The translations under genes and the position numbers were made by a program. Below the pieces are notes generated by a model, which was given only the letters and a program-made list of their open reading frames with translations, did not search any database and was not told the origin of the DNA. A stretch of 47,341 nucleotides of DNA from a virus, in IMG/VR virus record IMGVR_UViG_3300045450_000074, positions 1-47,341 of that record. One strand, written 5' to 3'. Within the stretch, counting starts at the first letter, position 1. Each line of letters starts with the position of its first letter. Positions 1 to 47,341 of this stretch are shown here, one piece after another.

Positions 1-127
1 AAGGCGTGATTACGATGGAGGAATATCGCACCGCCCTCCTTATCGGCCTTGAGCGCGAGGTCGAGGAATACGAGCGTCGGCTCTCCGTCCGCATCGGCGT
101 CCCGGTGACGTTAGGATGAGCGCCGCT
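1..127. repeat. 127-bp terminal overlap identical to 47215..47341 (circular-closure signature)
   Basis: Bases 1-127 (aaggcgtgattacgatgg...gatgagcgccgct) recur verbatim at 47215-47341. ORF 47007..47333 ends inside it and ORF 116.. starts inside it. Confidence 0.95.
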
Positions 128-1785: not shown

Positions 1786-2362
1786 AAAGAAGAAGGCGCA
1801 GACCGCCGGCCTCAAGCGCGGCGGATCGCGCAACCCGGCCAAGCTCACCGAATTCGAGCGCGCGTTCTGCCTCCACTATTGCGGGGCGGCCCTCGGCGTC
1901 GGCTCTCGCGCCGCGCAGCTCGCCGGCTACAACGGGAGCGCCCCGGCCAACTTCAAGCGCTACGCCTATGAGGTCCTCCAACGGCCGCGCGTCGTGGCCG
2001 AGATCGAGCGGCTCCGGGCGGCGCGGGTCGAGCGCCTCTCGATCACGGCCGACGAGGTCCTCCTCGACCTCGTGGCGATCCGCGACAAGGCCCGCCTCCT
2101 CCCCGCCACGAGCGCGAACCTAAAGGTCGAGTTGTCGGCGGTCGAGAAGATCGGCGACCACGTCGGCGTGGCGGCGTTCCGCAAGCAACTCGGCTTGGGC
2201 GGACCGGGCGGCGGGCCTATAGAGATCGCGGACGCCGAATGGCTGGCGACCGCTACGGACGAGGAGCTAGACCACCTTGAGCGCGCCCGCTCGATCATTG
2301 ACCGTCGCGCCGGGGTCGTATCCCCGGATTCCGACGAGGGAAGCGATACGTCGGGAGCGTGA
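1775..2362 (+). CDS. terS: terminase small subunit (Terminase_2-like)
   Basis: Internal ATG of ORF 1634..2362. The LTEFERAFCLHY...AAQLAGY...VLQRPRVVAEIERL pattern is typical of terS. Lies immediately upstream of terL. Confidence 0.8.
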   Translation: MTPEKKKAQTAGLKRGGSRNPAKLTEFERAFCLHYCGAALGVGSRAAQLAGYNGSAPANFKRYAYEVLQRPRVVAEIERLRAARVERLSITADEVLLDLVAIRDKARLLPATSANLKVELSAVEKIGDHVGVAAFRKQLGLGGPGGGPIEIADAEWLATATDEELDHLERARSIIDRRAGVVSPDSDEGSDTSGA

Positions 2363-2375
2363 GCGCCGGCAACGG

Positions 2376-4013
2376 ATGCTCGACCGCGAGCGGGTCGCAC
2401 GCGAGGGCGCGGCGATCCGCGAGCGCTGCTCGTCCCTGATCGAGTTCGTCCGCGAATTCTGGCCGGTCCTCGAACCGTCACGCGAGTTCAAGGATGGATG
2501 GGCGATCCAGGCGGTTTGCGACCACCTTGAGGCCGTGAGCGACGGCAAAATCCAATATCTGCTCATCACGATCCCGCCGGGCATGATGAAATCGCTTCTC
2601 GTCGCCGTGTTCTGGCCGGCATGGGAATGGGCGACGCGCGACGCCTCGCTCCGCTACCTCACGTCGTCGTTCTCGCGGCCGAACGTGATCCGCGACAACT
2701 CCAAGATGCGGAAGCTCGTCGAGAGCGAGAAATATCAGGCGCTGTTCCCCGAGGTGCGCCTCGATCCGACGAGCAACGCCAAGGACAAGTTCGAGAACCT
2801 CAAGACCGGCAACCGCGAGGGTCGCGCGTTTGAGAGCATGACGGGCGGGCGCGGCGACCGGGTCATTATCGACGATCCGCATTCGGTCGACTCGGCCGAG
2901 TCGGAGACGCAGCGCGAGGCGACGGTCCAGACGTTCCGCGAGGCGATCCCCGACCGCCTCAACGATCTCACGAAATCCGTGATCGTCGTGATTATGCAGC
3001 GGCTCCACGCCAAGGACGTCGCCGGCACGATCATTTCGCTCGGCCTTCCGTACGTCCACCTCAATTTGCCGATGGAATTCGAGCCGACGCGCGAGGTGAA
3101 CGGCCTCAAGGTCGACAACCGGTGCCGCACCTATGCGAACGACAATTCCCTTCTGTTCGAGGACCCGCGGACGGAGGAGGGCGAGCTGTTGTTCCCGGAG
3201 CGCTTCCCGGCGCCCGAGGTCGCGAAGCTCCGCCACGTCAAAGGCTCGTACGCATGGGCCGGGCAGTATCAGCAACGGCCGTCGGCCCGTGAGGGCGGCC
3301 TGTTCAAACGCGCATGGTTCGCGGGGAAGATCATCGCTCGCGCCGGTCTCCCGACCTCGGGCGTCAAGCGCGTGCGCGCCTGGGATTTCGCCTCGTCGAC
3401 CGAAGCGAAGGGCGATCCCGATTGGACGGCCGGCGTCCGCATGTTCCGGCACGGCACCGATTATTACATCGACAGCGTCGACCGCGACCGGCTCTCCCCC
3501 GGCAACGTGCAAGCGCTGGTCAAGACTCGAGCCGAGACCGACCCGGTCGGGACGATCGTCCGCATCCCGATCGACCCGGCTCAGGCGGGCGAATTCCAGG
3601 CGCAAAGCTACATCACCGCCCTCGCCGGCTATCCGCTCAAGGCCGAGCGTCCGGGGTCGGCCGGGAACAAGGTCGGCCGCGCGCTCCCCATGAGCATCCA
3701 GGCCGAATTCGGGCATATCTACCTCGTCAACAGCGGGCCGCCCGAGGAGGGCCTCGACGCGTGGATCGAGACGTTCCTCGACGAGCTATGCTCGTTCCCG
3801 ACCGCGGCGCACGACGACCAAGTCGACGCCGCAGCCGACGCGTTCAATGAGCTGGCTATCGGCGGCTCCCAAGAGTTCGCCTCGGCCTCCTCGGGCAAGT
3901 CGGAAATGCTCAAGACGGCGGAGCGTGACAGCCGATACGGGTTCGGCGATAACACGCCCAACACCGGGCGGGGATACGGGTCCGCGCCCTCCCGCATGCA
4001 AGGATTTCGATAG
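2376..4013 (+). CDS. terL: terminase large subunit
   Basis: ORF 2277..4013. Walker A-like PPGMMKS and Walker B DRVIIDDPH, with a C-terminal nuclease-like region with conserved Asp (AHDDQVDA). The start could instead be 2277. Confidence 0.9.
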   Translation: MLDRERVAREGAAIRERCSSLIEFVREFWPVLEPSREFKDGWAIQAVCDHLEAVSDGKIQYLLITIPPGMMKSLLVAVFWPAWEWATRDASLRYLTSSFSRPNVIRDNSKMRKLVESEKYQALFPEVRLDPTSNAKDKFENLKTGNREGRAFESMTGGRGDRVIIDDPHSVDSAESETQREATVQTFREAIPDRLNDLTKSVIVVIMQRLHAKDVAGTIISLGLPYVHLNLPMEFEPTREVNGLKVDNRCRTYANDNSLLFEDPRTEEGELLFPERFPAPEVAKLRHVKGSYAWAGQYQQRPSAREGGLFKRAWFAGKIIARAGLPTSGVKRVRAWDFASSTEAKGDPDWTAGVRMFRHGTDYYIDSVDRDRLSPGNVQALVKTRAETDPVGTIVRIPIDPAQAGEFQAQSYITALAGYPLKAERPGSAGNKVGRALPMSIQAEFGHIYLVNSGPPEEGLDAWIETFLDELCSFPTAAHDDQVDAAADAFNELAIGGSQEFASASSGKSEMLKTAERDSRYGFGDNTPNTGRGYGSAPSRMQGFR

Positions 4014-6182
4014 ATGGCTCTCCCTCCCGCGATCCGCCGCCCGCTTGAGGAGGCCGGGTTCCTCGCGCCGATCGCGCAGCCGGATCGCCTACCGACACGG
4101 CCCACCAACGAAGCGCCCGAGGCGCCGCCATCCATCGGCAACATGATTTCCCGGTCGGCCGATACGAGTTGGTTCCCGTCGAGCTATCTCAAGCTGCTCG
4201 CCGAGAACGACGACAGCGTCCTCAAGAGGGATGGCGGCGGCCTCAAGCTCTACGACGCGCTCCTCGACGACGACGTCGCATTCTCGGCGTTGCAGCAACG
4301 CCGCATGGCGATCACATCGCGCGATTGGGAGGTGACACCGGGCGACGACAAGGACCCCCGCTCCGTCAAGGCGGCGGACGAGTTCCGCGCCATGCTCAAG
4401 GAGGTCGGGTTCGACCGGGTGACGAACGGCCTCCATTACGGGGTTTGGTACGGCTACGCCATCGCCGAGGCGGTCTATTCGATCCGCGATTTCGACGGTC
4501 GGCCGATCGTGTGGCTCTCCGACCTGATCGTCCCCGATCGCCGTTGGTTTGGGTTCACGATGGAAGGCGAGTTGCGGTTCGTCACCCCGTACGCCCGCGG
4601 CCTCGACGACGAGACGCTCCCGCCGAACAAGTTTATCGTCGTCCGGACCGGCGGATCGCACGACTTCGCGTTCTACGGCCTGGGGCTGGCGCATTGGGCG
4701 TATTGGCCCATTTTCTTCAAGCGGTCGGCGCTCAAATTTTGGGCGCTCTACCTCGAAAAGTTCGGCATGCCGACCGTTGCGATCGGCTTCCCGGAGACCG
4801 AGCAGAACGATCAGGAGAAGCTCGACAAGCGCCTCGCCGCCGCGGTCGCGGTCGGGCAGGACCGGGCCGTCCTCGTCCCCGAGGAGACGCTCAAAAACGA
4901 CACGCTCAAACTGATCGAGGCCGAGCGCAGCGGCGCCGGCTCGTCCTCGTACAAGGATTTCGTCGGCACGAACGACGACGCGTTGATCCGCGTGATCCTC
5001 GGCCAGACCGGCACGTCGAAGGCGACCCCCGGCGGCCTCGGCGGCGACGGACAGGCCAAGAAGGACGAGGGGGTCAAGCGCGAGATCGTCAAGGCCGACG
5101 CCGACCTCATTTCCGACGCGATCCACAAGCTCGGCCGGTGGCTCACGACATGGAACCACGGCCCCGACGTGGCCCCGCCGAGCGTCTATCGCGTCCTCGA
5201 CGATGCCGAGGACCTCAACACCGTCGCCGAGCGTGACGTCAAGCTCAACGGGATCGGGATCAAGCGGACGGAGGACAGTATCCACGAGGTCTACGGCGAT
5301 GGGTACGAGATCGACCGTCTCAGCGAGGAGCAGAAGGCGGCCAACGCGTCGGCGCTTGCCGCGGCGAAGGCCGTTCCCGGCGCCCCAGGCGCCCGGCCGG
5401 CCGCGAACGACAACCCCCGCGCCAAGATCGCCGCGGCTCGCGCAGAGTTCGGCGTCGACGACGAGGCCCCGCTCTACGTCTATCGCCAGCTCAAGCCCGA
5501 GAGCGCCCGCGCGCTCATCGCATGGGCGGAGAGCGTCGGGATCAAGGCGACTGTCCCGGCCGCGGAAATGCACACGACGGTCCTTTACTCGAAACGGCCC
5601 GTCGATTGGTTCTCGCTCGGCGAGAGCTGGCAACCGGAGGTTACTGTTTCCAAGGGCGGGCCGCGCAAGATCGAGCGCCTCGGCGACAAGGGCGCCGTCG
5701 TCCTCCGGTTCGAGAACAGCGACATGCGCTATCGGCACGAGAGCATGGTCGAGCGCGGCGCTTCGCACGATTACGACGAGTTCCGCATTCACCTCACGCT
5801 ATCCTACGACGTGCCGGCCGACTTCGACCTCGATGCGATCGAGCCGTTCACCGGCGAGCTTAAATTCGGCCCGGAAATGTTCGAGCGGATCAAGGACAAG
5901 CCGTTCGATCCCGCCTCGCTCGACTTCGCGGCCGACGAGGAAGACGCGATCGACCGGCTCATTGCGAAGCTCGTCGAGGAGGCCGACCCCGTGTTCGCCG
6001 CCATGGGCGACGCGCTCAAGACCTCGTTGCAGGGGGTCAAGACGGTCGAGGGCGCCCGCGTCGCGATCCTTGAGGCGTTCGAGCGCATGCCAGTCGAGCG
6101 GCTCGCCGAGCTGACCGCCCTTCCCATGCTCGCCGTCCGTGCCGGCGCGCTGGCGGGGGCGGAGAACGACGTCAAAGCGTGA
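4014..6182 (+). CDS. portal protein (Mu gp29/DUF935 type) with an inserted 2H phosphoesterase-like module
   Basis: 722-aa ORF directly after terL with DUF935-like core motifs. At about nt 5466-5915 an insert carries HTTV and HLTL motifs, followed by a typical portal C-terminal tail. Confidence 0.9.
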   Translation: MALPPAIRRPLEEAGFLAPIAQPDRLPTRPTNEAPEAPPSIGNMISRSADTSWFPSSYLKLLAENDDSVLKRDGGGLKLYDALLDDDVAFSALQQRRMAITSRDWEVTPGDDKDPRSVKAADEFRAMLKEVGFDRVTNGLHYGVWYGYAIAEAVYSIRDFDGRPIVWLSDLIVPDRRWFGFTMEGELRFVTPYARGLDDETLPPNKFIVVRTGGSHDFAFYGLGLAHWAYWPIFFKRSALKFWALYLEKFGMPTVAIGFPETEQNDQEKLDKRLAAAVAVGQDRAVLVPEETLKNDTLKLIEAERSGAGSSSYKDFVGTNDDALIRVILGQTGTSKATPGGLGGDGQAKKDEGVKREIVKADADLISDAIHKLGRWLTTWNHGPDVAPPSVYRVLDDAEDLNTVAERDVKLNGIGIKRTEDSIHEVYGDGYEIDRLSEEQKAANASALAAAKAVPGAPGARPAANDNPRAKIAAARAEFGVDDEAPLYVYRQLKPESARALIAWAESVGIKATVPAAEMHTTVLYSKRPVDWFSLGESWQPEVTVSKGGPRKIERLGDKGAVVLRFENSDMRYRHESMVERGASHDYDEFRIHLTLSYDVPADFDLDAIEPFTGELKFGPEMFERIKDKPFDPASLDFAADEEDAIDRLIAKLVEEADPVFAAMGDALKTSLQGVKTVEGARVAILEAFERMPVERLAELTALPMLAVRAGALAGAENDVKA

Positions 6183-6373
6183 GGATCAGGGGCGGCACGC
6201 GCGGGCTTCTCTCCGGGATCGACGCGGGCCGGCTCGATCCGTTCGACGCCTACGTCTACGAGGAGCCGCACCTCCACTATCTCACGAGCGGAAAGCTCGC
6301 CAAGATGAAGCGCGAACAGCGGGCGCGGGAGAAGCGGCGCGCAAAGCGGCTTGCGTCCCTCCCGCCATTCTGA
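6179..6373 (+). CDS. hypothetical basic protein (64 aa)
   Basis: GTGA overlap with the portal stop. High GC3. Confidence 0.5.
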   Translation: MRIRGGTRGLLSGIDAGRLDPFDAYVYEEPHLHYLTSGKLAKMKREQRAREKRRAKRLASLPPF

Positions 6374-6427
6374 CAAACCGTCCCGGCCCGATGGTGTCCG
6401 CCCCCCGGTTCGGTCAGGCGCGTAGGG

Positions 6428-6466
6428 AAGGCCCGCCGTGGGAGCAACACGGCGGGCCTTTTCGTG
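6428..6466 (+). terminator. intrinsic terminator
   Basis: Perfect 13-bp stem, aaggcccgccgtg (6428-6440) paired with cacggcgggcctt (6448-6460). 7-nt loop, then a ttttc tail. Confidence 0.7.
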
Positions 6467-6512
6467 TCTGCGTTCCCGGCGTAACGATGTGGCCTCACCA
6501 ATGGAGGACCCT

Positions 6513-6692
6513 ATGCGCTCACCTTTCCGCTTCGCCCCGCTCGCCGCCCTCGCCCTTGCCGCATGCGGCGGCTCAGGCTCTCCGCCGCCGTATAGCAATG
6601 GCACGACGCCGGCCGGCGGGTCGTCGGGACAGCCGTCGGAGAACAATTCGAACGGATCGCCGGCAAAACAGCCGAACATGCCGGCGCAATAG
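6513..6692 (+). CDS. small lipoprotein (59 aa)
   Basis: GGAGGA RBS at 6503-6508. MRSPFRFAPLAALALAAC has a lipobox (LAAC). The mature part is Gly/Ser/Pro/Asn-rich. Confidence 0.7.
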   Translation: MRSPFRFAPLAALALAACGGSGSPPPYSNGTTPAGGSSGQPSENNSNGSPAKQPNMPAQ

Positions 6693-6920
6693 GTATTGCG
6701 CGAGGCGCGTAAGATCGGCATGGTCGAACGCGTTGACGGGGGATGCGCGACACCGCGTACCTGGGGGGCCGGCGAGTGATTCCGCCGGTTCCCTCGTCGA
6801 TATCCGGGATGACCACCACCCGCGGGTGCTTGTCAGTTACGCCCGGTGGCGCCTCGGAATAGGTACGAGGGCGGAGCGGCTCCACTGGCAACGGTGGGGC
6901 CGTTCGCGTATCCCCTCCCC

Positions 6921-8375
6921 ATGAGGTTCGACGCCACCGCCGGAGCCAAGCTCCTACCGCTCCAAATGCGGGCCGCCGACGTCGAGCGATGGCTCCTCGA
7001 CCGCGATCCCACCGCCTCGGGCGCATACGGGACGATCTCCAAGGAGGAATATGCGCGCTCGTTCACCGCCGCGCGCACCGCCGGGACCGATATTGCCGAT
7101 GACCTCTATTTCGCGTTCGTGGACGTCGTGTCCCGGTCCGGGACGGAGGACGATTTCTCCAAGCTCGTCATGCCGATCCTACGGAAAAAGGGATGGCTCG
7201 GCGGCGACGAGGGGCAGATCGCCCGACGGGTCGAGCTGATCTATGACACGAACCTCCGCCTCGCTCGCGCCGCGGGCCGGTGGGATCGCTATTGGTCGAC
7301 CCGCGCCGCGTTCCCGTACCTCCTCGCCTTCACGGCCGGCGACGAGCGCGTCCGCCATCCGCCCGAAAGCAAGCATTCCGACCACCGCGCGTGGGACGGC
7401 ATCCTCCTGCCGATCGAGCATCCGTTCTGGCGCGAATATTGGACCCCGCTCGGGTTCCGGTGCCGGTGCGGTATCCGCCAGCTCACCCGGTCGCAGTTCG
7501 CGCGCCTCAAGCGGGGCGAGACGAGCGAGAGCGATCTCGCCGCGCGCAAGGCCCGCCTGGGGCCGCCCGTGTTCCTCGCGCCCTCCCGGCCGATCGCGGC
7601 GCAGCTCGACGCCATGGTCGACGCGACGAACGCCTCGCGCATGCCGGGAATGCCGGCAGTCGATCCCGCCGAGACCGCGGCGGCCGGCCGCGCCGCCCTC
7701 TCGCGCGAGCAGCACGACGAGGTGACGGCGCGGATCACGGCGGAGCTTGACCGCGTCGGCCTCGGCGCGCCCGCCCCGCCCCCCGCGCCCGCGCCACAGC
7801 GCGCCGACGTCGAGAAGCTCGGCGGCGAGGCCCGATCCTACGTCCTCGACAAGGGGCGCAAGGCGGGCGTCGAATATCTCGTCGCGTTCGACGAGGCGAC
7901 CGGCCGGGAATATCAGCGGAGCAAGGGATCGCGATCGGCCGTCTCGTTCTCGCCCGCGCTGCTCTCCGCCATGCGGAACCCGGCGCGCTCGATCATCCTT
8001 CACCACAACCACCCCGGATCGACATCGCTCTCCGGCGTCGACGTGTTGCAGCTCAACGAGGTCGGCGCCCGCTCGATATGGGCGCACGGCCACAACGGGT
8101 CCTCATTCTACGCCGAGCGGGCCGGCGACACGCCGATCGCAAAGGCGACGTTCAACTCCATCGCCGAGCGCATCCGCGTCGAGCTGCAAGGCGCCGTCAC
8201 GGCGGGGACGATGACGGTCGACGACGCCGTCCTCATGCACAATCACCTGACGTGGCGCGTCATGAGCGACCTCGGCCTCCTGATCTATCGCGCCGAGCTG
8301 GCCGGCGCGAGCGGCGAGGCCTTCGCCCGGCATGCCGACCTGTTCCGCGCCATCATTGCAAGGCTCACCTCATGA
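6921..8375 (+). CDS. MuF/SPP1 gp7-type minor head protein fused to a C-terminal RadC-like JAB/MPN domain
   Basis: ORF 6846..8375. MuF signature GDERVRHPPE...WDGILLP...GFRCRCG, then a Pro/Ala linker, then EYLVAFDE...ILHHNHPGSTSLSGVD. The start may be GTG 6846 or ATG 6921. Confidence 0.85.
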   Translation: MRFDATAGAKLLPLQMRAADVERWLLDRDPTASGAYGTISKEEYARSFTAARTAGTDIADDLYFAFVDVVSRSGTEDDFSKLVMPILRKKGWLGGDEGQIARRVELIYDTNLRLARAAGRWDRYWSTRAAFPYLLAFTAGDERVRHPPESKHSDHRAWDGILLPIEHPFWREYWTPLGFRCRCGIRQLTRSQFARLKRGETSESDLAARKARLGPPVFLAPSRPIAAQLDAMVDATNASRMPGMPAVDPAETAAAGRAALSREQHDEVTARITAELDRVGLGAPAPPPAPAPQRADVEKLGGEARSYVLDKGRKAGVEYLVAFDEATGREYQRSKGSRSAVSFSPALLSAMRNPARSIILHHNHPGSTSLSGVDVLQLNEVGARSIWAHGHNGSSFYAERAGDTPIAKATFNSIAERIRVELQGAVTAGTMTVDDAVLMHNHLTWRVMSDLGLLIYRAELAGASGEAFARHADLFRAIIARLTS

Positions 8376-8527
8376 TTATCGACCCCCCTTCGGAGCTGGC
8401 CGGCCTCTCGGCATGGGCGCGGTTCCGCCGTGAAATGGAGCGCCTGGCCAAAGCCGATCCGGGGAACAGCGAGATCGCCGAACAGCTCAACCTTGCCCGG
8501 ACGATCGAGGCGCAGAAGCGCGGATAG
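8372..8527 (+). CDS. hypothetical protein (51 aa)
   Basis: ATGA overlap with the MuF stop. In frame with ORF 8078..8527. Confidence 0.5.
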   Translation: MIIDPPSELAGLSAWARFRREMERLAKADPGNSEIAEQLNLARTIEAQKRG

Positions 8528-8581
8528 ACGGAGAGCCGCCTCGGGGGTTATAGGTCGGCGACCAACCGCGAGGCCCCCGCT

Positions 8582-9253
8582 ATGTCTATGTCCGATTACC
8601 TCGAAAATGCGACGCTCAAGCTCCTGTTGCAGGGCATCGCGATTACCGGCCTCGCCGACAACGCCGGCTCCGCGCCATTCACCAACCTCTACCTCTCGCT
8701 CCACAGCGCAGACCCCGGCGATCCCGGCACTCAGGCGACGAACGAGATCGCATACGGCGGCTATGCGCGCGTTGCCGTCGCCCGCTCCACAGCCGGTTGG
8801 ACCGTCGTCAACAATGCGGCGAACCTCGCGGCCATCGCCAACTTCCCGCAGGGGACGAGCGGCGGCGGCGTCGCGACGCATTGGGCGCTCGGCGTCGCGG
8901 CGAGCGGCGCGACCAACGTGATGTTTAAGGGCGTGATCGGCTCGGCCGTTGGCCCGTTCACCGCGGCGACGACCGGGACGTTCACGATCCCCGGCTCCGG
9001 CCTCGTCGTCAACGATCGCGTGACGTTCCTATCCGTCCCCGGCTCGTCCCTCCCCACCGGGATCACGGAGGGCGCGCTGTATTTCGTCGCGAGCGTCTCC
9101 GGCGACGGGATCACGATCAGCACCACGCAAGGCGGATCGGCGGTTGCCATCACGGCGAGCGGTGACGGCCTCGCGTTCAAGGACGTCGGCGTCAACACCG
9201 GCGCCAACATCACGCCGCAGCTCGGCACCGGCACTACGATTACGCTGGATTAA
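8582..9253 (+). CDS. putative virion fibre-like protein (223 aa)
   Basis: ORF track. An N-terminal DYLENATLKLLL...YLSLHSADPG...GYARV pattern recurs in phage fibre-associated proteins (recollection only). Confidence 0.6.
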   Translation: MSMSDYLENATLKLLLQGIAITGLADNAGSAPFTNLYLSLHSADPGDPGTQATNEIAYGGYARVAVARSTAGWTVVNNAANLAAIANFPQGTSGGGVATHWALGVAASGATNVMFKGVIGSAVGPFTAATTGTFTIPGSGLVVNDRVTFLSVPGSSLPTGITEGALYFVASVSGDGITISTTQGGSAVAITASGDGLAFKDVGVNTGANITPQLGTGTTITLD

Positions 9254-9258
9254 TCGAC

Positions 9259-10728
9259 ATGGCGCTTCGCCGAGGGACGTTCTTCGACCTCCCGGCCGAC
9301 CTAAGCCTCGCCTTGTTCTCGTTCCCCATTTCGTCGTCGGTCATCCTGGACGGGAACGGGAAGATCGAGGGGATCAGGGACGTTATCGGCGACGGCACGC
9401 TTATTGCGCGCACCGCCGATTCGACGAAGCGCCACACCCTTGCCAAGATCAACGGGTTCGACAGCGCGTATAGCGCTGATACGAACAGCAACGGCATTCT
9501 ACTAACAGATTACTCTAAGCTCCCGGTCGGCGACGCCGAGCGTCATATGACTTGGGTTGTCGTGTCGCAGGACGGCGTCGTCGGCGGCTATCGTGGCGGC
9601 GGCCGTCAATATTGGATCGACAACCCGTTCCCCGACTATCGCCTCCGTACGAACGTGGCCGATTACACGGGAAGCGGCTCGACCAACAATAGCCAGCTCC
9701 ACGGGCTTTCTCTTAATCATCGAAACATATCGGGTGCGACTAGCCGATCGCAGATGATCGTCGACGGCTCGCAGCGGCTGGATCAACCGGTTACGCTCAA
9801 TACTTCGCTTGGGACGTACGGCATCAAGGGCGCGGAGCTGGCTTATTACACGATGAAAGGCAACACCGTGTTGCACTACATCGGCAAGCGCGCCGCAACC
9901 GTCGACGAGCAATACAAGATCGACAGCATCTGCCAGACGTACACCGGGATGACGCTCCCGGCTGGCCACCCTTACGCCTCGACGCCATGGATGGTCGACG
10001 ACGGGGCAGGGTCGGCGACGTTCGGCTCCTCGTTCACGTTCGCCATGGCGGTCGCTCAGGCGACGGCGATCATATCCGCGAACGGCGCGTCGAGCGCATC
10101 GTCGATCGCAATTGCGGCGGCCACCGCCACGAGCCGCGCCAACGGCATCGCCCAGGCGCAGACGTTGGCGATCGGCGCCGCCTCGCTCACCTTCTCCGGC
10201 GCGGGCGTGGCGCTTGCATCGGCTACGGCGGTCGCGGTCGGGTCGACCATATCCGCCGCCAGCGGCAACGGGGCAGCGCTCACCACGTCGGCCGCGGTGG
10301 CGCAGGGGATGACGATCGAGCGGCACCGCGGCGTGTCGCTCTCGTACGCCCTCGTCCGCGCCACGGCCGCCAGCATCGAGCAGGGCGTCGGCGTGGCGTA
10401 CGGCGCAGCGACGGCGATCGGATCGGCATCCTCGGCCGCCATCGCCAGCGGGTCGGGGTTCTCGCTCTCCTATGCGACGGCGGTCGGCGCCGGGGCGCTG
10501 GCTATGCGCGGCGATGGCGCGGCGATCGTCACCGCCTCGGCCACCGCCTCCGCCCGCGCGGCCGTGCGCGGCGACGGCTATTCGCTCGGCCTCTCCCGCG
10601 CGACCGCGACCGGGCCGGCGCAGTCCCGCCGCATCCCCCCGGACAGCCGCGGCGCGATCCTCTCCGACAACGCGTTCCGCTCGGCGATCCTTGCCGACAC
10701 CGGGCCGCGTCGCGTAACGGTCTCGTGA
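9259..10728 (+). CDS. putative fibre/receptor-binding protein with C-terminal Ala/Gly-rich tandem repeats (489 aa)
   Basis: ORF track. The N-terminal half has lower GC. About nine repeats of 20-21 aa lie at nt 10072-10620. Confidence 0.7.
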   Translation: MALRRGTFFDLPADLSLALFSFPISSSVILDGNGKIEGIRDVIGDGTLIARTADSTKRHTLAKINGFDSAYSADTNSNGILLTDYSKLPVGDAERHMTWVVVSQDGVVGGYRGGGRQYWIDNPFPDYRLRTNVADYTGSGSTNNSQLHGLSLNHRNISGATSRSQMIVDGSQRLDQPVTLNTSLGTYGIKGAELAYYTMKGNTVLHYIGKRAATVDEQYKIDSICQTYTGMTLPAGHPYASTPWMVDDGAGSATFGSSFTFAMAVAQATAIISANGASSASSIAIAAATATSRANGIAQAQTLAIGAASLTFSGAGVALASATAVAVGSTISAASGNGAALTTSAAVAQGMTIERHRGVSLSYALVRATAASIEQGVGVAYGAATAIGSASSAAIASGSGFSLSYATAVGAGALAMRGDGAAIVTASATASARAAVRGDGYSLGLSRATATGPAQSRRIPPDSRGAILSDNAFRSAILADTGPRRVTVS

Positions 10729-11124: not shown

Positions 11125-11369
11125 GCGAGCAAGCCCCCTTGTTGGGACAGGCGAACAACGGCGACCGCTCGCGCGTGTCGGTCGGCAAATTCACCGGGAT
11201 CGCCGGCATTCGGCGCCGGCCGCTCGGCCGCGAAGTCGCCTATTACGGCGAGGCGCCCTCGCGCTTCCCGGTCGCGATCACGATCGGCGACGAGGCGACG
11301 GAGGCGACCATGCGGATTGACAGCAAGGTCAACGGGTTCGCCGTCCTATGGGTGCCGGACGCCATCTAG
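11121..11369 (+). CDS. hypothetical protein (82 aa)
   Basis: ATGA overlap with the upstream gene. Last gene of the rightward block. Confidence 0.55.
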   Translation: MSEQAPLLGQANNGDRSRVSVGKFTGIAGIRRRPLGREVAYYGEAPSRFPVAITIGDEATEATMRIDSKVNGFAVLWVPDAI

Positions 11370-11672
11370 CGCCATGCCGCGCAGCTCGTGCGGCGTGAGG
11401 CCCCGGCCGGCGGTCGCCGGGGGCAGATAGCGGGGAACGATCCGGATCATCGTCTCGAGTCCGTGGCAGTGCCAGCAATCTAGCCGCTCAGGCGCCGGCT
11501 CCTTGACCTCGTCCCGCGCCCCGCAATCGCACGCCATGCACGAGACCGGCCACCGCGGGCCGACGAGCGCCGAGACGGCCGGCGGGGGCAGCGGGGCGGC
11601 CTTCGGCGACCGGACACGCTTCGCCGCCGGCTTCACCGCGAATAGGTCGGGGGCGTCGAACAGGTCGGTCAT
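11346..11672 (-). CDS. hypothetical zinc-ribbon protein (108 aa)
   Basis: Internal ATG of ORF 11346..12089, with ATGA overlap to the GNAT-like gene stop. CMACDC...CWHCH cysteine pairs. Confidence 0.5.
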   Translation of the reverse strand: MTDLFDAPDLFAVKPAAKRVRSPKAAPLPPPAVSALVGPRWPVSCMACDCGARDEVKEPAPERLDCWHCHGLETMIRIVPRYLPPATAGRGLTPHELRGMALDGVRHP

Positions 11673-12133
11673 AGGACGCGCCGCCATCGGCCTTTTGCGC
11701 GTGGATCGACCGCCGCCGGCCGCGCACGTCCAGGGCGATCCCATTCCTCGGCCGCCGTCTCGCCCATATACTCGAATCCAGCAGCGCGAAGGGATCGACC
11801 GTCCTCGTCGGGGAGCGTGTAGGTCCACGCCTCGCGATAGCCGAGCGCCTTTCCAGCCCGGCACAGCGCACCGTACAACATGGAACAGGCGGGCGCGGCG
11901 TGATCGCCGAGGCCGGGAAGGTTGGGGAGCGCGGCGCAACGCGTGATGACGAACCGGCCGGTTCCAAGCCATACCCTCGGAGGATTGCCGGCAAGCGCCG
12001 CGCCAACGCGACAGCCGTCGAGTTCGACTGCTACCGCGAACAGCGCACCATGGACCCGCGGCAAGTGACGGTGAACGTCGGACACCCATGCGCGGGCCTC
12101 ACGACCCGTGATCGGAGCGAGGCAATAGCTCAT
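11669..12133 (-). CDS. GNAT-like acetyltransferase-fold protein (154 aa)
   Basis: ORF 11669..12184 with an internal ATG at 12133 (ATGA overlap). The pattern ITRCAA...SMLYGALCRAGKALGY..TYTL..E.G.SLRAAGF...KGRW is typical of a phage GNAT-like family. Confidence 0.6.
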   Translation of the reverse strand: MSYCLAPITGREARAWVSDVHRHLPRVHGALFAVAVELDGCRVGAALAGNPPRVWLGTGRFVITRCAALPNLPGLGDHAAPACSMLYGALCRAGKALGYREAWTYTLPDEDGRSLRAAGFEYMGETAAEEWDRPGRARPAAVDPRAKGRWRRVL

Positions 12134-12312
12134 AGATCGAGCGTTCCATTCACCCATGTCGCCGGCCGCCCCGCCCGTCGCCACGCCTCAATTTCCGGCC
12201 GCGAGAGCGTGTTGACCCCGGCCCGCGCCGCCCGCGCGATGACGTGTTGAGGCGGGGGCAGGAGCGCGAACATATTGCGCGGCCGGGCGGTCGGGAAGCG
12301 CGCGAAGCTCAC
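12130..12312 (-). CDS. hypothetical protein (60 aa)
   Basis: ORF track. GTGA overlap upstream and ATGA overlap downstream. Confidence 0.45.
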   Translation of the reverse strand: MSFARFPTARPRNMFALLPPPQHVIARAARAGVNTLSRPEIEAWRRAGRPATWVNGTLDL

Positions 12313-12500
12313 GGCCGCGGATCAGCGGCGACCGGGACGCACGCGATCGTGACCCCGCCCCCGCGCGAGATCGCGTCGACGGCCTTCTCGGCGATCGTGC
12401 GCGCGGTCGCCTTGCACGAGGCCTCGTCGGCGAAGGTCGTCGGGGCGAATGAGACGCCGGTCGTGGCGATGATGACGAGGAGAAAACGGTTCATAGTCAT
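12309..12500 (-). CDS. small secreted protein (63 aa)
   Basis: AAGGA RBS. The signal-peptide-like N-terminus is MNRFLLVIIATTGVSFAPTTFA/DE. Confidence 0.6.
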   Translation of the reverse strand: MTMNRFLLVIIATTGVSFAPTTFADEASCKATARTIAEKAVDAISRGGGVTIACVPVAADPRP

Positions 12501-12512
12501 TCCTTTCGGGGC

Positions 12513-13184
12513 CTATCCCCATTGCTCCGCCATCGCCTTTGCGATGCCGGGATATGTTGTCGAGCGCTCAGACCAACGATCAGGCGACGGGCCAAGCGCA
12601 TTTTGCCCGGAGTCCGTCTGATTTCCCCACCGCTCGACCCCGGTCCCGAACAAGCCGAGTTGCGGCCGGCCGTCATCGACTAGGCGCGGTTTTGCGCGTC
12701 CAGTGGGGCGGAGATTGGCGAGTTTGCGACGCCATAAGACGGTAGCCTTGCTGGCGTCCTCGCCGAAATTAAACGGCTGAATGGTCTGCGGCAGTGCGAG
12801 GCGAGGCCTCACCTCCGTCCCGATGATCCCTTGCGGATTTTCGACCGCATAACCGGCGTCACTGCCCTCCTCGTCAACCCATTGGTCAAGCAGATCGAAT
12901 AGGAGCTTGGTCTCATGGACAGCGCGCAGGGTGGACGCGTGCCGCCCGTAAATCCTGTGGTTCCAATGCAAGCCGGCATTGTTGAGAAACGTGCAAGTCG
13001 GGTGCGCGATAACACGACGCGCACCGCGAAGCCCTCCCGCACGGATGAAGGCGAACACGTCTTCCACGATATGAGGGCCTCCCCGCCGAGCTGGCCGAAG
13101 ATCGACGGAGGTCGCCTCGTGACCGCGCACCGCGAAGGCGTCCCGCACGGCTCCGCTTTCCTCGAACAGGACAACGACCTTCAT
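12513..13184 (-). CDS. putative DNA methyltransferase (C5-cytosine-like fold, 223 aa)
   Basis: Internal ATG of ORF 12513..13634. Has LFEESG, HPTCTF (PC-like) and ENP (ENV-like) motifs and a C-terminal RS.TYPGIAKAMAEQW. Confidence 0.55.
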   Translation of the reverse strand: MKVVVLFEESGAVRDAFAVRGHEATSVDLRPARRGGPHIVEDVFAFIRAGGLRGARRVIAHPTCTFLNNAGLHWNHRIYGRHASTLRAVHETKLLFDLLDQWVDEEGSDAGYAVENPQGIIGTEVRPRLALPQTIQPFNFGEDASKATVLWRRKLANLRPTGRAKPRLVDDGRPQLGLFGTGVERWGNQTDSGQNALGPSPDRWSERSTTYPGIAKAMAEQWG

Positions 13185-14196: not shown

Positions 14197-14351
14197 CGCA
14201 GGAGCCGCCGGAGCTGCTCGGCGCCCGCGTCGGACAGGCTCGCCGCCAGCCGGCGGAGGTCGAGATATTCCGGGAGGCGGACGACGTCGCCGCGCGCGGA
14301 GTCGGCCACCGCGTTGACCGCGTCGCGCACCTGATCGCCGAGCGAGCGCAT
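14193..14351 (-). CDS. hypothetical protein (52 aa)
   Basis: Internal ATG of ORF 14193..14447, abutting the upstream stop (TGATG). Confidence 0.4.
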   Translation of the reverse strand: MRSLGDQVRDAVNAVADSARGDVVRLPEYLDLRRLAASLSDAGAEQLRRLLR

Positions 14352-14930: not shown

Positions 14931-15298
14931 GCGATCCGCCGATAACGAAGCGTGTCGACCGGGGCATTCGCGAACGCGGCTTGAGCGCGAGCCTCGTCGG
15001 CCGTCCCGACACCCCATGCAACGCCGTCGTCATAGAGATACTCGAACAGGGCGTCGGGGTCGTGCTGATCGAGCTGATCGACCGTGAAGGAATTGTTGAG
15101 CGCGCGGAGCCGGTTTGCCTCATCGCGCGCCTTGAGCGTCGCGGACGCGAGATTGATTTCGAGCCAGCTCCACCGCCCCGCCGTCGTCGACGAATTGGCG
15201 ATCGTCCGCAACTGCCGTTGCGTCATGGTCTGAAACACCGCGCTCTTGCGAGCGGTCTCGGCTGCAATCTGCTCGTTCACGGTCGGCGCGGTCGCCAT
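14927..15298 (-). CDS. hypothetical protein (123 aa), first gene of the antisense cassette
   Basis: Internal ATG of ORF 14927..15415, preceded by a GAAGGA RBS. Confidence 0.6.
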   Translation of the reverse strand: MATAPTVNEQIAAETARKSAVFQTMTQRQLRTIANSSTTAGRWSWLEINLASATLKARDEANRLRALNNSFTVDQLDQHDPDALFEYLYDDGVAWGVGTADEARAQAAFANAPVDTLRYRRIA

Positions 15299-15457
15299 CG
15301 TCGTCAATCCTTCGCGTTGTGCGTAAGAACCATTGCGCCAGCTCGGCGCGGATCGCAAGCCACAATCTACGCGGCGTGCGTAAAAAGATGCGGCGCCCGG
15401 ATTGCTCGCGGGCATGCAGCCTTATCGCCACCTCGCGCGCGGGGTATCTCTCCGGCC
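15299..15457. promoter_or_regulatory. divergent regulatory region (antisense cassette versus head operon)
   Basis: 159-bp gap between divergent starts. Contains tgcgtaag (15319), tgcgtaaaaa (15377-15386) and the 19-mer cgcgggcatgcagccttat (15407-15425), which also occurs at 20703-20721. Confidence 0.5.
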
Positions 15458-16417
15458 ATGAGCAAACGTTGGATCGAGGCCTTTCGCATCGGCGGCAAGG
15501 CAAGTCGCGGGATCAAGCCCGAGCATTTGGCCGAGGTCGTCACCGACGATTTCGGCGCGAACCCCCGCGCGCTGTGCTTCGGCCACCCGAAGTCCGACGA
15601 CCCGGCCGCCGGCCTCATCACCGGCGCCAAGGTCGAGGGAAACTCGCTCATGGTCGAGGTGGACAAGCTCTCGCCCGAGGCGATCACGGGGATCAAGGAC
15701 GGGAAGTGGCTCAACCGCTCGGCCGCCTTTTTCGACCCGCACCACGAGGCGAACCCGCGCCCCGGCAAATGGTCGCTCCGCCACGTCGGCCTCCTCGGCG
15801 CCGCGGCGCCCGGCATCCCCGGCATGGGATCGCTGCAAAAGGCCCTCGCCTTCGACGCCGACGACGAGCTAATCACCGAAGGCGATCCGGCTGACGCCGT
15901 CATCTTCGCTGGCGCCCCGACCGAAACGCATTTCATTTTCGAGAGCAAGGAACCGACCATGGACCCGAACGACAAGAAGCCCGACGCCGCGCAGATCGAG
16001 CGCGAAAACGCCTTCGCGGCGCGGGTTCGCAACCATTTCGAGGCGAGCAACAAGAGCGCAATCAATGCTCTCGTGCTGGCCGGTAAGGTCCTCCCGGCCG
16101 AGGTCGACGGCCTCACCACCTCGTTCAACGCGCTCGACCCCGAGGGCGAGGAGCTGACGTTCGGCGCCGGTGACAATACCACCAAGGCGACCGCCGTCTC
16201 GCATCTGCTCGCGTTCATGGCGTCGGCCCTCCCGAAGCGCGTCGACGTCTCCGGCCAGCGCAAGTCGCCCGAGACCCAGTTCGACGCCAAGGGCGGCGAG
16301 ACGTCGGCCAATCCCCAGGCCGAAGCGCGCCGCCTCTCCGCCGAGGCCCGCGCGCTCATGGCCAAGGACCCCGGTCTCACGTTCGAGGCCGCGCTCGAAA
16401 CCCTCTCGGCCGACTAA
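15458..16417 (+). CDS. capsid scaffolding protein/prohead protease (P2 gpO / Mu gpI-like)
   Basis: Internal ATG of ORF 14981..16417. MSKRWIEAFRIGG...GHPKSDDPAAG...RHVGLLGAAAPGIPG resembles the gpO family layout. Position is upstream of the capsid gene. Confidence 0.75.
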   Translation: MSKRWIEAFRIGGKASRGIKPEHLAEVVTDDFGANPRALCFGHPKSDDPAAGLITGAKVEGNSLMVEVDKLSPEAITGIKDGKWLNRSAAFFDPHHEANPRPGKWSLRHVGLLGAAAPGIPGMGSLQKALAFDADDELITEGDPADAVIFAGAPTETHFIFESKEPTMDPNDKKPDAAQIERENAFAARVRNHFEASNKSAINALVLAGKVLPAEVDGLTTSFNALDPEGEELTFGAGDNTTKATAVSHLLAFMASALPKRVDVSGQRKSPETQFDAKGGETSANPQAEARRLSAEARALMAKDPGLTFEAALETLSAD

Positions 16418-47333: not shown

Positions 47334-47341
47334 GCGCCGCT
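47215..47341. repeat. second copy of the 127-bp terminal overlap
   Basis: Identical to bases 1-127. Confidence 0.95.

What the first reader, a model, noticed from the sequence alone, without database searches (positions are those of the whole stretch)
4014..8527. Two adjacent capsid-internal proteins both carry enzymatic cargo: candidate virion-delivered counter-defence
The portal (2H phosphodiesterase insert) and the MuF protein (JAB domain) are the two head components known to sit at the DNA exit vertex. Both are enlarged by enzyme domains whose known relatives act on cyclic-nucleotide or ubiquitin-like immune signalling. Between them lie a terminator-bounded lipoprotein moron and a basic 64-aa ORF.

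Pre-packaged enzymes would act before any phage transcription. That would be a distinct strategy from the early-expressed soluble Acb/Apyc proteins described so far.
Basis: inference. Interest (0 to 1): 0.8.

Follow-up and report, generated by a model that had tools for sequence, protein, structure and literature searches.

The report
Phage head proteins carrying enzyme domains
A complete 47-kb phage genome encodes a portal protein with a built-in Acb1-type enzyme (which destroys bacterial cyclic-nucleotide alarm signals) and a minor head protein with a JAB-like metalloenzyme; both fusion types, and the idea that phages ship such enzymes in the capsid, are already published, so this is a clear new example rather than a new principle.

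Summary
The portal (4014-6182) is a Mu-type portal with a catalytically intact Acb1 domain (Pfam PF23474, E 1e-34). It is a clean insertion between the portal core and a conserved C-terminal tail. The MuF protein (6846-8375) carries a C-terminal domain with a JAMM-like motif and a JAB/MPN fold. That assignment is weak by sequence and moderate by structure.

- Fusions of 2H domains to portal or MuF, and RadC-type JAB domains in head-packaged proteins, were described in 2017 and 2022. Those papers proposed the same "packaged and injected to counter nucleotide signalling" idea.
- Portal-Acb1 is nearly universal in this phage clade and occurs in cultured phages, including Pam3, whose portal structure is solved.
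- The JAB cargo is sporadic. Most relatives have a bare MuF, and others carry a zincin peptidase. The two fusions are therefore not a linked pair.
- Nothing ties this JAB domain to ubiquitin-like signalling.

One new point: the insert lies in the portal segment that is missing from mature phage Mu and attributed there to head-protease cleavage. The domain is therefore probably released. Whether it is then injected, discarded, or mainly acts late in the producing cell is unresolved.

The parts
4014..6182 (+). Portal protein (722 aa), Mu/DUF935 type, with an internal Acb1 domain
   Evidence: Pfam Portal_Mu E 1e-77 and Acb1 E 1.1e-34. phrog_113 portal E 4.6e-73. PDB sequence matches to the portals 8rka and 9khx and to the Pam3 portal 8hds.
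5421..5933 (+). Inserted module (residues ~470-640): flexible linkers plus the Acb1-type 2H phosphodiesterase domain (Pfam match 5469-5897). Catalytic H520 is at 5571-5573 and H593 at 5790-5792.
   Evidence: The insertion boundaries come from alignment with insert-free relatives. The HxT motifs align to Acb1 7t26. The AlphaFold model has pLDDT 94-98 in the domain and low-confidence linkers. The Foldseek top hits are Acb1 7t26/7t27, with TM 0.72-0.74 on the target.
5934..6182 (+). Conserved helical C-terminal tail of the portal, homologous to the C-terminus of Mu gp29
   Evidence: It is retained in relatives with and without the insert. It maps to Mu gp29 residues ~437-512, within the 124 residues absent from the Mu virion portal.
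6179..6373 (+). Conserved 64-aa ORF with a basic C-terminus, translationally coupled to the portal (GTGA overlap); function unknown
   Evidence: Gene-like GC1/2/3 of 0.68/0.49/0.86. Homologues sit directly after the portal in L001, L003 and L089.
6426..6470 (+). Terminator-like hairpin (15-bp stem, 7-nt loop, U-rich tail)
   Evidence: RNA fold gives -36.5 kcal/mol for 6420-6475. The consensus terminator scan did not call it.
6513..6692 (+). Candidate moron: 59-aa prolipoprotein (lipobox LAAC; 42-aa Gly/Ser/Pro/Asn-rich mature part)
   Evidence: A GGAGGA ribosome-binding site lies 5 nt upstream. Codon pattern is atypical at 0.60/0.68/0.77. There is no homologue in relatives or phage records. 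The same slot holds a different signal-peptide protein in L089.
6846..7745 (+). MuF / SPP1 gp7-type minor head protein domain (residues 1-300)
   Evidence: phrog_220 E 5.5e-40. Most of the 120 best homologues carry PF04233 on record. The N-terminus is conserved with P0122, which supports the GTG 6846 start.
7833..8375 (+). JAB/MPN-fold metalloenzyme-like cargo domain on MuF (residues ~330-509). Motifs are E343, H387-N-H389, S396, D399 and A413-H-G-H416.
   Evidence: Motif residues conserved in the family (E343, H387, S396 invariant). The AlphaFold model has pLDDT 86. PDB fold hits are JAMM1 5ld9, BubCD 9ea4 and RadC 2qlc. In BFVD the same fold occurs in many 'minor capsid proteins'. The family has 1540 cluster representatives, and 63 of 81 sampled members carry Phage_Mu_F.
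8372..8527 (+). 51-aa ORF overlapping the MuF stop (ATGA). It is homologous to the C-terminal end of a cargo-free MuF in a relative.
   Evidence: tblastn gives 46% identity to L003 17132-17275, inside its 345-aa MuF gene, and to the ORF after the MuF-JAB gene in L089.
14981..16417 (+). Head maturation protease, the candidate enzyme that would release the cargo domains
   Evidence: phrog_976 E 6.8e-40. It shows no BLASTP similarity to Mu gpI.

Best explanation
This is a complete 47.2-kb tailed-phage genome, probably of a Sphingomonadaceae host. Two of its capsid-internal head proteins serve as carriers for enzyme domains.

**Portal and Acb1**
- The portal carries a catalytically intact Acb1-family 2H phosphodiesterase.
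- The domain is inserted on flexible linkers between the portal core and its C-terminal tail, on the capsid-interior end of the protein.
- Acb1 enzymes hydrolyse the cyclic di- and trinucleotide signals of CBASS.

**Proposed mechanism**
- The fusion is made late and twelve copies enter each procapsid with the portal (inferred).
- The insert lies in the segment that in phage Mu is absent from the mature portal and attributed to head-protease cleavage.
- The phage's own head maturation protease therefore most likely detaches it, leaving a free internal protein (inferred).
- That protein can leave with the DNA and hydrolyse signals in the next cell.
- The unassembled and procapsid-bound pool also degrades signal late in the producing cell, when CBASS is reported to fire.

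**MuF and the JAB-like domain**
- MuF carries a JAB/MPN-fold metalloenzyme domain of a large MuF-associated family.
- It is a swappable cargo. Sister phages have no cargo or a HExxH zincin instead.
- Its substrate is unknown.

**My probabilities**
- Domain identities: 0.9 for Acb1 and 0.7 for the JAB fold.
- Enzyme domains physically present in procapsids: 0.75.
- Acb1 released by proteolysis: 0.55.
- Retained and injected in useful amounts: 0.35-0.4.
For: **Acb1 identity**
- Pfam Acb1 matches at 119.7 bits.
- The HxT motifs align to solved Acb1 and are conserved in 44 relatives.
- The fold matches Acb1 7t26/7t27 best.

**Insertion topology and selection**
- The insertion is clean and the tail is retained.
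- 97 of 120 portal homologues down to 37% identity keep the domain, which implies selection.

**Independent fusions elsewhere**
- Acb1 is fused to unrelated portals in cultured phages: the phiPSA1 group, Rhizobium RHEph/RHph phages, Synechococcus phages, Pam3 and Vibrio PP270.
- The JAB-like domain is fused to MuF in 63 of 81 sampled family members and once to a Phage_portal_3 portal.

**Release by proteolysis**
- The last 124 residues of Mu gp29 are absent from the virion portal, which is attributed to protease I (PMC11915804).
- The insert maps between Mu residues 433 and 437.
- A head maturation protease is encoded.

**Published reasoning and timing**
- The same reasoning for head-packaged effector fusions is in PMC5512222 and PMC9503650.
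- Late, protease-triggered CBASS activation is reported in PMC12991175.
Against: - No proteomic or structural evidence shows the domains in mature virions.
- The Acb1-like domain of the Pam3 portal is not in the deposited coordinates. 8hds is absent from the fold hits although its sequence aligns at E 1e-25. It is therefore either flexible or removed.
- The Mu cleavage may mean that the segment is discarded before DNA packaging.
- At most twelve copies per virion could be delivered.
- This phage's protease shows no BLASTP similarity to Mu gpI, so transferring the cleavage from Mu is an analogy.
- The JAB assignment fails the Pfam curated threshold, and profile searches of PDB sequences were not significant.
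- Enzyme activities were not, and could not be, tested here.
Confidence: 0.55

Rival explanations
1. Producer-cell model. The portal-Acb1 fusion is selected for timing and dosage, not for delivery. The enzyme is made with the head genes, exactly when prohead protease activity switches on CBASS. It destroys the signal in the cell where it is made, either before assembly or after being clipped off. Nothing useful is injected.
For: - CBASS is reported to be activated late, by prohead proteases (PMC12991175).
- Newly made portal would outnumber the twelve possible incoming copies by orders of magnitude (inference).
- A stand-alone Acb1-like gene sits in the packaging module of Edwardsiella phage vB_EpM_ZHS, between terminase and portal.
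- The Mu-type C-terminal segment is removed from the portal.
- The Acb1-like domain is not seen in the Pam3 virion portal model.
Against: - Co-expression does not require fusion.
- The repeated independent fusions are to proteins or protein ends that face the capsid interior: portal C-terminal regions here, MuF according to the literature. That pattern points to encapsidation as the selected trait.
- In the material examined here, no Acb1 match lay under a gene annotated as terminase, tail or outer-capsid protein. That sample is limited and was not a systematic survey.
Confidence: 0.3
2. The 2H domain is not an anti-signalling enzyme. It would be an RNA-end-processing or RNA-repair phosphoesterase (LigT-like), or an RNase acting on host or phage RNA.
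For: - LigT-type 2H enzymes are the next-best fold matches.
- PHROG 755, which matches the domain, is labelled 'RNA ligase'.
- Iyer et al. 2017 considered an RNase role for portal- or MuF-fused 2H domains.
Against: - The match is to the Acb1-specific Pfam family at E 1e-34.
- The best sequence and fold matches are experimentally characterised anti-CBASS Acb1 proteins.
- In the parts of the window that were annotated, no hit was to an RNA ligase family apart from the 2H domain's own match to phrog_755, which is labelled 'RNA ligase'.
Confidence: 0.07
3. The MuF-borne JAB-like domain is a polymorphic toxin or effector aimed at competitor bacteria or at general host physiology. Alternatively it is a RadC-like DNA- or nucleotide-processing enzyme that helps genome ejection or protection. 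In either case it is not a counter to ubiquitin-like immune pathways.
For: - The cargo is polymorphic among close relatives: none, JAB-like, or HExxH zincin. That is the published pattern for MuF effector fusions.
- The nearest sequence family is RadC-like JAB.
- RadC-like JAB is predicted to lack the ubiquitin-tail groove and to process nucleic acids or nucleotides (PMC5512222).
- The same domain occurs in giant polyvalent proteins.
Against: - The best PDB fold matches include true ubiquitin-like-protein peptidases (P. furiosus JAMM1) and the JAB module of the bacterial ubiquitination-like system BubCD. A deconjugating activity is therefore not excluded.
- The downstream ORF is conserved regardless of cargo, so it is not a dedicated immunity gene as expected for a toxin cassette.
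Confidence: 0.45

Closest known systems
Acb1 anti-CBASS phosphodiesterases (T4 gp57B / phage FBB1 Acb1, PDB 7t26; Pfam PF23474)
   Same: Same Pfam family, same two HxT catalytic motifs and same 2H fold. The expected chemistry, hydrolysis of cyclic oligonucleotide signals, is also the same.
   Different: The characterised proteins are stand-alone soluble proteins of about 140-165 aa. Here the domain is embedded inside a 722-aa portal, flanked by linkers and followed by the portal tail. Activity and substrate range are untested.
2H-portal and 2H-MuF fusions and RadC/JAB-containing polyvalent proteins (Iyer, Burroughs, Anand, de Souza & Aravind 2017, PMC5512222; Iyer et al. 2022, PMC9503650)
   Same: Same architectures, same genomic context (terminase-portal-MuF head module), and the same proposed logic of packaging into the head and injection to counter nucleotide-based defence signalling.
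   Different: Those were survey-level predictions. This locus adds three things. It shows an internal-insertion topology in a Mu-type portal. It adds a large, mostly metagenomic clade probably of Sphingomonadaceae phages (two of its portal homologues are also in NCBI assemblies). It maps the insert to the segment missing from the mature Mu portal.
Pseudanabaena phage Pam3 portal gp3 (PDB 8hds) and portals of P. syringae phage phiPSA1 and Rhizobium RHEph/RHph phages
   Same: These are portal proteins of cultured phages with an Acb1-like domain (33-43% identity to this one).
   Different: In Pam3 and phiPSA1 the domain is at the extreme C-terminus of the portal rather than inserted. phiPSA1-group portals are annotated DUF1073, and the Pam3 portal matched this one only in the Acb1 region. 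The Pam3 paper does not mention the domain, and the domain is not in the coordinates.
Phage Mu portal gp29 and its maturation
   Same: Homologous core and homologous C-terminal tail. In Mu the last 124 residues are absent from the virion portal, which is attributed to cleavage by protease I (PMC11915804).
   Different: Mu has no enzyme insert. The head protease of this phage is not detectably similar to Mu gpI.
T4 Alt / internal proteins and P1 Dar proteins (capsid-packaged, injected effectors)
   Same: The concept is the same: effectors loaded into the procapsid, processed by the head protease and ejected with the DNA. This comparison rests on my own knowledge and on the introduction of PMC5512222.
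   Different: Those use short capsid-targeting sequences or dedicated partners, not covalent insertion into the portal. Their delivery is experimentally shown. Here it is not.

Membership tests
Acb1 (PF23474; 2H phosphoesterase superfamily) | Match to the family profile above the curated threshold | tested here: met
   119.7 bits against a cut-off of 27, E 1.1e-34, covering profile positions 2-139 of 144.
Acb1 (PF23474; 2H phosphoesterase superfamily) | Two catalytic H-x-T/S motifs | tested here: met
   H520-T-T and H593-L-T align with LHTT and PHIT of Acb1 7t26. The His and Thr positions are invariant or nearly invariant in 44 relatives.
Acb1 (PF23474; 2H phosphoesterase superfamily) | 2H fold closest to solved Acb1 structures | tested here: met
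   The model has pLDDT 94-98 in the domain. The Foldseek top hits are 7t26/7t27 (E 1e-8, TM 0.72-0.74 on the target) and 9q2y, ahead of LigT.
Acb1 (PF23474; 2H phosphoesterase superfamily) | Hydrolysis of 3'3'-cGAMP and other cyclic oligonucleotides, and rescue from CBASS | not testable with these tools
   This needs biochemistry and infection assays.
Mu-type portal (PF06074, DUF935) | Profile match and position after the large terminase | tested here: met
   E 1e-77 over 335 of 336 profile positions. The gene starts one base after the TerL stop. It is homologous to Mu gp29 along both core and tail.
MuF / SPP1 gp7 minor head protein (PF04233) | Profile match above the curated threshold | tested here: inconclusive
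   The window protein scores 22.4 bits against a cut-off of 29.6. However, phrog_220 matches at E 5.5e-40, and homologues of up to 67% identity over the MuF region carry PF04233 on record.
JAB/MPN (JAMM) metalloenzymes, including RadC-like JAB (PF04002) | JAMM metal-binding motif E...HxH...S..D | tested here: met
   E343, H387-N-H389, S396 and D399 are present. Of these, E343, H387 and S396 are invariant and H389 and D399 occur in at least 90% of 81 family members. The spacing between HxH and S is one residue shorter than I recall for RadC.
JAB/MPN (JAMM) metalloenzymes, including RadC-like JAB (PF04002) | Profile match above the curated threshold to a JAB family | tested here: not met
   RadC scores 17.2-17.4 bits against a cut-off of 22.1. 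Only 7 of 81 family members reach E 0.01, and no member matched any other JAB/MPN Pfam family at that threshold (RadC was the only one). A profile search of PDB sequences gave E 0.086 to RadC 2qlc.
JAB/MPN (JAMM) metalloenzymes, including RadC-like JAB (PF04002) | JAB/MPN fold | tested here: inconclusive
   The model has pLDDT 86. The top PDB hits are all JAB/MPN proteins (JAMM1, BubCD, RadC, AF2198) with probability up to 1.0. However, E is only 3e-3 and TM about 0.5 on the small targets. BFVD lists RadC, MPN and JAB proteins further down its ranking.
   The substrate groove was not analysed. The literature predicts that the RadC clade lacks it.
Head-packaged effector fusions / polyvalent proteins (Iyer et al. 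2017) | Carrier domain (MuF or portal) plus a variable enzymatic domain, in a terminase-portal head module, with cargo that varies between relatives | tested here: met
   Cargo variation (none, JAB-like, HExxH zincin, intein) is. The JAB-like domain also occurs on a Phage_portal_3 portal and in proteins of 1,500-6,600 aa.
Head-packaged effector fusions / polyvalent proteins (Iyer et al. 2017) | Physical presence in virions and transfer into the host | not testable with these tools
   There are no proteomic data for this phage. The Pam3 portal coordinates lack the domain.
MuF polymorphic toxins with a cognate immunity gene (Jamet et al. 2017, recalled from memory) | Cargo-specific immunity gene immediately downstream | tested here: not met
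   The downstream 51-aa ORF is homologous to sequence at the end of a cargo-free MuF in L003 and follows MuF in L089 as well. It is therefore not cargo-specific.

The most novel reading that the evidence does not exclude
Mu-type portals have a C-terminal segment that the head protease removes. This phage clade may have turned that disposable segment into a loading dock. Any domain inserted there is carried into the procapsid in exactly twelve copies. It is then cut free by the same prohead protease whose activity is reported to trigger CBASS. The antidote, Acb1, would thus be mechanically coupled to the trigger, and the freed enzyme would be carried over into the next host as an internal protein.
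Probability: 0.25. Interest if true: 0.65.

Novelty: new member of a known kind. Interest (0 to 1): 0.42.

Why it matters
Acb1 has been studied as a free, soluble phage protein.

**Experimental opening.** No experiment that I could find has tested whether the portal-embedded forms are in virions, are cut out, or are injected. These forms are common in Sphingomonadaceae-type, rhizobial, Pseudomonas syringae and cyanobacterial phages.

**Tractable systems.** Several cultured phages carry the fusion: Pam3, the phiPSA1 group and the RHEph/RHph phages. Pam3 already has a cryo-EM structure of the whole virion.

**A concrete prediction.** The insert maps onto the segment that is lost from the mature Mu portal. 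This predicts a cleavage product containing Acb1, which virion proteomics could confirm or refute quickly.

**Practical relevance.**
- It bears on how early or late phages need to neutralise cyclic-nucleotide immunity.
- It bears on annotation. These portals are usually labelled simply 'portal', and two stand-alone Acb1-like genes seen here were labelled 'prohead protease'.
- It bears on predicting host range for phages used against CBASS-bearing bacteria.

As a concept, however, it is already in the literature.

Tried and rejected
1. **Acb1 fused to prohead proteases.** Two 'prohead protease' annotations lay under Acb1 matches. They turned out to be stand-alone 150-199-aa Acb1-like genes that are misannotated, so I dropped the idea.
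2. **Direct structural evidence that an Acb1 domain stays on a virion portal.** The Pam3 portal sequence aligns at E 1e-25, but 8hds is not among 150 fold matches. The domain is therefore not in the coordinates. The paper's text does not mention it.
3. **Homology of the head protease to Mu gpI.** I found none by BLASTP.
4. **Sequence-level placement of the JAB-like domain.**
   - Pfam is below threshold.
   - PDB phmmer and profile searches were not significant.
   - The word-indexed protein search found only three homologues. The exhaustive search found 1540.
5. **Lipoprotein homologues.** None in four related loci, in L088/L089, or in 50,697 phage records.
6. **Known RNA families in the portal-MuF gap.** Nothing credible.
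7. **Sigma-70 promoters in 3500-9500.** None, and the terminator scan was at chance level.
8. **A compensating stand-alone Acb1 near a portal that lacks the insert (L088).** None within 10 kb.
9. **Close cultured relatives by DNA.** Only short 70-87% matches, among them Sphingobium and Erythrobacter phages.
10. **Experimental work on portal-Acb1.** Literature searches found none.

Full report
**What is in the window**

The window is a complete phage genome.
- Its ends carry an exact 127-bp direct repeat, which gives a unit length of 47,214 bp.
- G+C is about 66%.
- The finding lies in the head module on the + strand.
  - The small terminase is at about 1634-2362 and the large terminase at 2277-4013.
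  - The portal is at 4014-6182, followed by a 64-aa ORF at 6179-6373.
  - A candidate lipoprotein gene follows, then MuF at 6846-8375 and a 51-aa ORF at 8372-8527.
- After a reverse-strand block come a head maturation protease (14981-16417), a scaffold/cement-like protein and the major head protein.
- Further downstream are tail genes, an endolysin and replication genes.

**The portal**

- Pfam assigns residues 78-428 to Portal_Mu (E 1e-77) and residues 486-628 to Acb1, PF23474 (E 1.1e-34, 119.7 bits against a cut-off of 27).
- The two catalytic H-x-T motifs of the 2H superfamily are present at H520 and H593. They align with those of the crystallised anti-CBASS nuclease Acb1 (7t26).
- An AlphaFold model built on 44 homologues gives pLDDT 94-98 for the domain and low confidence for the flanking linkers.
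- The model's best PDB fold matches are Acb1 7t26/7t27 and the Burkholderia phage BCSR5 phosphodiesterase, ahead of LigT.
Portals 52-66% identical in the core lack precisely residues ~470-640. They resume with the same helical tail (DAIDRL...EGARVA.LEA...) that ends this protein.

**How common the portal fusion is**

- Among the 120 best portal homologues in 5.8 billion proteins, 97 carry Portal_Mu plus Acb1. They are mostly 690-740 aa and many lie on 40-50-kb contigs. They go down to 37% identity. The domain and its catalytic residues are thus maintained across a large clade.
- In one genome per GTDB species, only 4 of the 80 Mu-type portal loci returned by the scan carry Acb1 (tblastn over 84 loci). 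All four are in Sphingomonadaceae assemblies, on contigs of 31-404 kb, three of them over 140 kb and so probably prophages. This fits the weak DNA matches to Sphingobium and Erythrobacter phages.
- Among cultured phages, Acb1 matches lie under genes annotated as portal or head protein in several groups. These are the Pseudomonas syringae phiPSA1 group, where the domain is a C-terminal fusion in a 600-aa portal, and many Rhizobium RHEph/RHph phages. They also include Synechococcus phages, Vibrio phage PP270 and Pseudanabaena phage Pam3.
- The Pam3 portal has been solved by cryo-EM (8hds). Its sequence aligns to this insert at E 1e-25.
- The paper's text does not mention the domain. The chain is also absent from the fold matches of my model. 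I infer that the domain is not in the deposited coordinates.

**The MuF protein**

- The N-terminal 300 residues match phrog_220, 'minor head protein and DNA pilot', at E 5.5e-40. Many homologues of 50-67% identity over the MuF region carry PF04233 on record, although the window protein itself falls below the Pfam cut-off.
- The C-terminal ~180 residues hit RadC-like JAB only weakly (E 0.005, below threshold).
- They do contain a JAMM-like motif, E343...H387-N-H389...S396..D399, plus a second conserved motif, A-H-G-H. E343, H387 and S396 are invariant, and H389 and D399 occur in at least 90% of 81 family members.
- An AlphaFold model (pLDDT 86) finds JAB/MPN proteins as its best PDB matches. 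These are Pyrococcus JAMM1, the JAB module of Citrobacter BubCD, Chlorobium RadC and AF2198. Foldseek probability is up to 1.0, but E-values are modest (3e-3 and weaker) and TM is about 0.5 on the target.
- An exhaustive profile search finds 1540 cluster representatives of this domain.
  - Of 81 sampled, 63 carry Phage_Mu_F and one has a Phage_portal_3 portal domain.
  - Outside that sample, other representatives are giant proteins of 1,500-6,600 aa.
- In BFVD the same fold sits at the end of many 'minor capsid proteins'.
- I therefore accept 'JAB-fold metalloenzyme cargo on MuF'. I cannot place it in a functional subfamily.

**Are the two fusions a pair?**

No.
- Of the 120 best MuF homologues, 109 are 279-333 aa and have no cargo.
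- Eight exceed 440 aa.
  - Two of them, the window protein and P0122, have the JAB-like domain.
  - Three I read in full have a C-terminal HEFGHH...EWFAENF zincin motif. Two more of similar length were not read.
  - One has an intein.
- I matched contigs by length. By that rough proxy most Acb1-portal phages have a bare MuF.
- The one sister contig with MuF-JAB (L089) has the same layout as the window: portal-Acb1, the small conserved ORF, a variable exported protein, MuF-JAB, and a small ORF.

**The space between portal and MuF**

- The 64-aa ORF is real by conservation and codon pattern. Its function is unknown.
- The lipoprotein gene most likely starts at ATG 6513.
  - It has a GGAGGA ribosome-binding site, a lipobox LAAC and a 42-aa low-complexity mature part.
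  - Its codon pattern is atypical and it has no homologues.
- The slot is variable in relatives.
  - L089 has a 130-aa signal-peptide protein.
  - L003 has a Peptidase_M14 gene and a DUF1996 gene.
  - L088 has three unknown genes.
  - L001 has nothing called.
- 'Moron' is therefore a fair description.
- Only the upstream hairpin (15 bp plus a U-rich tail) looks like a terminator.

**Mechanism**

*Shown here*
- The Acb1 domain is intact and conserved.
- It sits in the C-terminal part of the portal, between flexible linkers.
- A head maturation protease is encoded.

*From the literature*
- In phage Mu, the type member of this portal family, the last 124 residues of gp29 are absent from the virion portal. 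[quoted passage not shown]
- My alignment puts Mu residue 388 at residue ~413 of this portal. It puts the insert between Mu residues 433 and 437. The whole Acb1 module and the tail therefore lie in the segment that Mu loses.

*Inferred*
- The module enters the procapsid with the portal and is then cut free.
- From there, two outcomes are possible.
  - It may instead be lost before packaging.
- The uncleaved and unassembled pool is active in the producing cell late in infection. A recent preprint reports that prohead proteases switch on CBASS at that stage (PMC12991175).

*How I weigh it*
- Repeated independent fusion to interior-facing head proteins is evidence that encapsidation is the selected trait, so I rank the delivery model first.
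- I put only about 0.35-0.4 on useful injection and about 0.3 on a purely producer-cell role.

*The JAB-like domain*
- Its polymorphic replacement by a zincin peptidase in sister phages hints at a peptidase role.
- The literature on RadC-type JAB domains favours nucleic-acid or nucleotide substrates.
- I leave the substrate open.

**Comparison with what is known**

- Iyer et al. 2017 (PMC5512222) described fusions of 2H domains to MuF or portal (their Fig. 5B) and the RadC clade of JAB domains in polyvalent proteins of phages and mobile elements, a subset of which they infer to be packaged in the capsid. They suggested that the 2H domains degrade nucleotides made by nucleotide-activated defence systems.
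- Iyer et al. 2022 (PMC9503650) state that such fusions suggest packaging into heads and injection, to counter signalling in SMODS (CBASS-type), cyclic-mononucleotide and CRISPR systems.
- A virion ejection protein that inhibits a CBASS effector has also been reported (bioRxiv 10.1101/2025.07.23.666291).
- The claim of a strategy 'distinct from those described so far' therefore does not stand as a concept.
- It is still true that I found no experimental test of portal-borne Acb1.

**Verdict**

- The finding is a new member of a known kind.
- The useful additions are:
  - the insertion topology;
  - the size and probable host range of the clade;
  - the lack of linkage between the two cargos;
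  - the mapping of the insert to the protease-removed segment of Mu-type portals, which yields a quick proteomic test.
- Interest is 0.42.

Noticed in passing
window 1-127 and 47215-47341: An exact 127-bp direct repeat at the two ends of the window. The contig is a complete circular or terminally redundant phage genome of 47,214 bp.
   Followed up: yes
window ~11346-14814 (- strand): The head module is split by a reverse-strand block that includes an RNase H gene (13181-13771) and a DUF2786-like protein. The protease, scaffold and major head protein genes follow only after it. The same split occurs in the related contigs L001-L004 and L089.
   Followed up: partly
window 8582-10728: Directly after MuF come a 223-aa protein matching the podophage GP4 'fiber I' protein gp80 (Pfam E 9e-14; PHROG 'head protein') and a 489-aa protein with a long Ala-rich repetitive C-terminal half and no family match. 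They may be head fibres or decoration proteins.
   Followed up: no
window 6374-6845; L001 12333-13063; L003 12368-16207; L088 11878-15368; L089 2875-3887: The interval between the portal/64-aa ORF and MuF is an insertion hot spot with different content in each relative. Here it holds a lipoprotein. L089 has a 130-aa signal-peptide protein. L003 has Peptidase_M14 and DUF1996 genes. L088 has three unknown genes. L001 has no called gene.
   Followed up: partly
window 8372-8527; L003 17132-17275: The 51-aa ORF that overlaps the MuF stop codon (ATGA) is 46% identical to the last ~48 residues of the 345-aa cargo-free MuF of L003. The JAB-like domain therefore looks as if it was inserted between MuF and this segment, which then became a separate ORF.
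   Followed up: partly
PDB 8hds (Pseudanabaena phage Pam3 portal gp3), residues 456-611: A structurally characterised phage portal has an Acb1-like C-terminal domain. The text of the structure paper does not mention it, and it appears not to be modelled.
   Followed up: partly
L085 3992-4444 (Roseobacter phage DSS3P8 gp129); L086 2116-2715 (Edwardsiella phage vB_EpM_ZHS ZHS_4): Stand-alone Acb1-like genes of 150 and 199 aa are annotated 'prohead protease' in GenBank, probably wrongly. In vB_EpM_ZHS the gene sits between the terminase and portal genes.
   Followed up: yes
proteins P0304, P0171, P0309: P0304 (727 aa) combines a Phage_portal_3 portal with the same JAB-like domain, so this cargo can ride on portals as well. 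P0171 (a MuF protein) and P0309 (943 aa, carrying the JAB-like domain) each show a sub-threshold intein-splicing match (30.8 and 17.4 bits against a cut-off of 35.8).
   Followed up: no
window 6846-6965: The public (JGI) gene call for the MuF gene starts 40 codons downstream (P0121, 469 aa). Conservation of the upstream peptide AAPLAT.GPFAY with P0122 supports the GTG at 6846.
   Followed up: yes
proteins P0126, P0130, P0161 (MuF homologues in related 44-48-kb contigs): Their ~350-residue C-terminal extensions carry a gluzincin-like HEFGHH...EWFAENF motif, with weak Pfam hits to anthrax lethal factor and M3 peptidases. A different metallopeptidase-type cargo thus occupies the position held by the JAB-like domain here.
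   Followed up: partly
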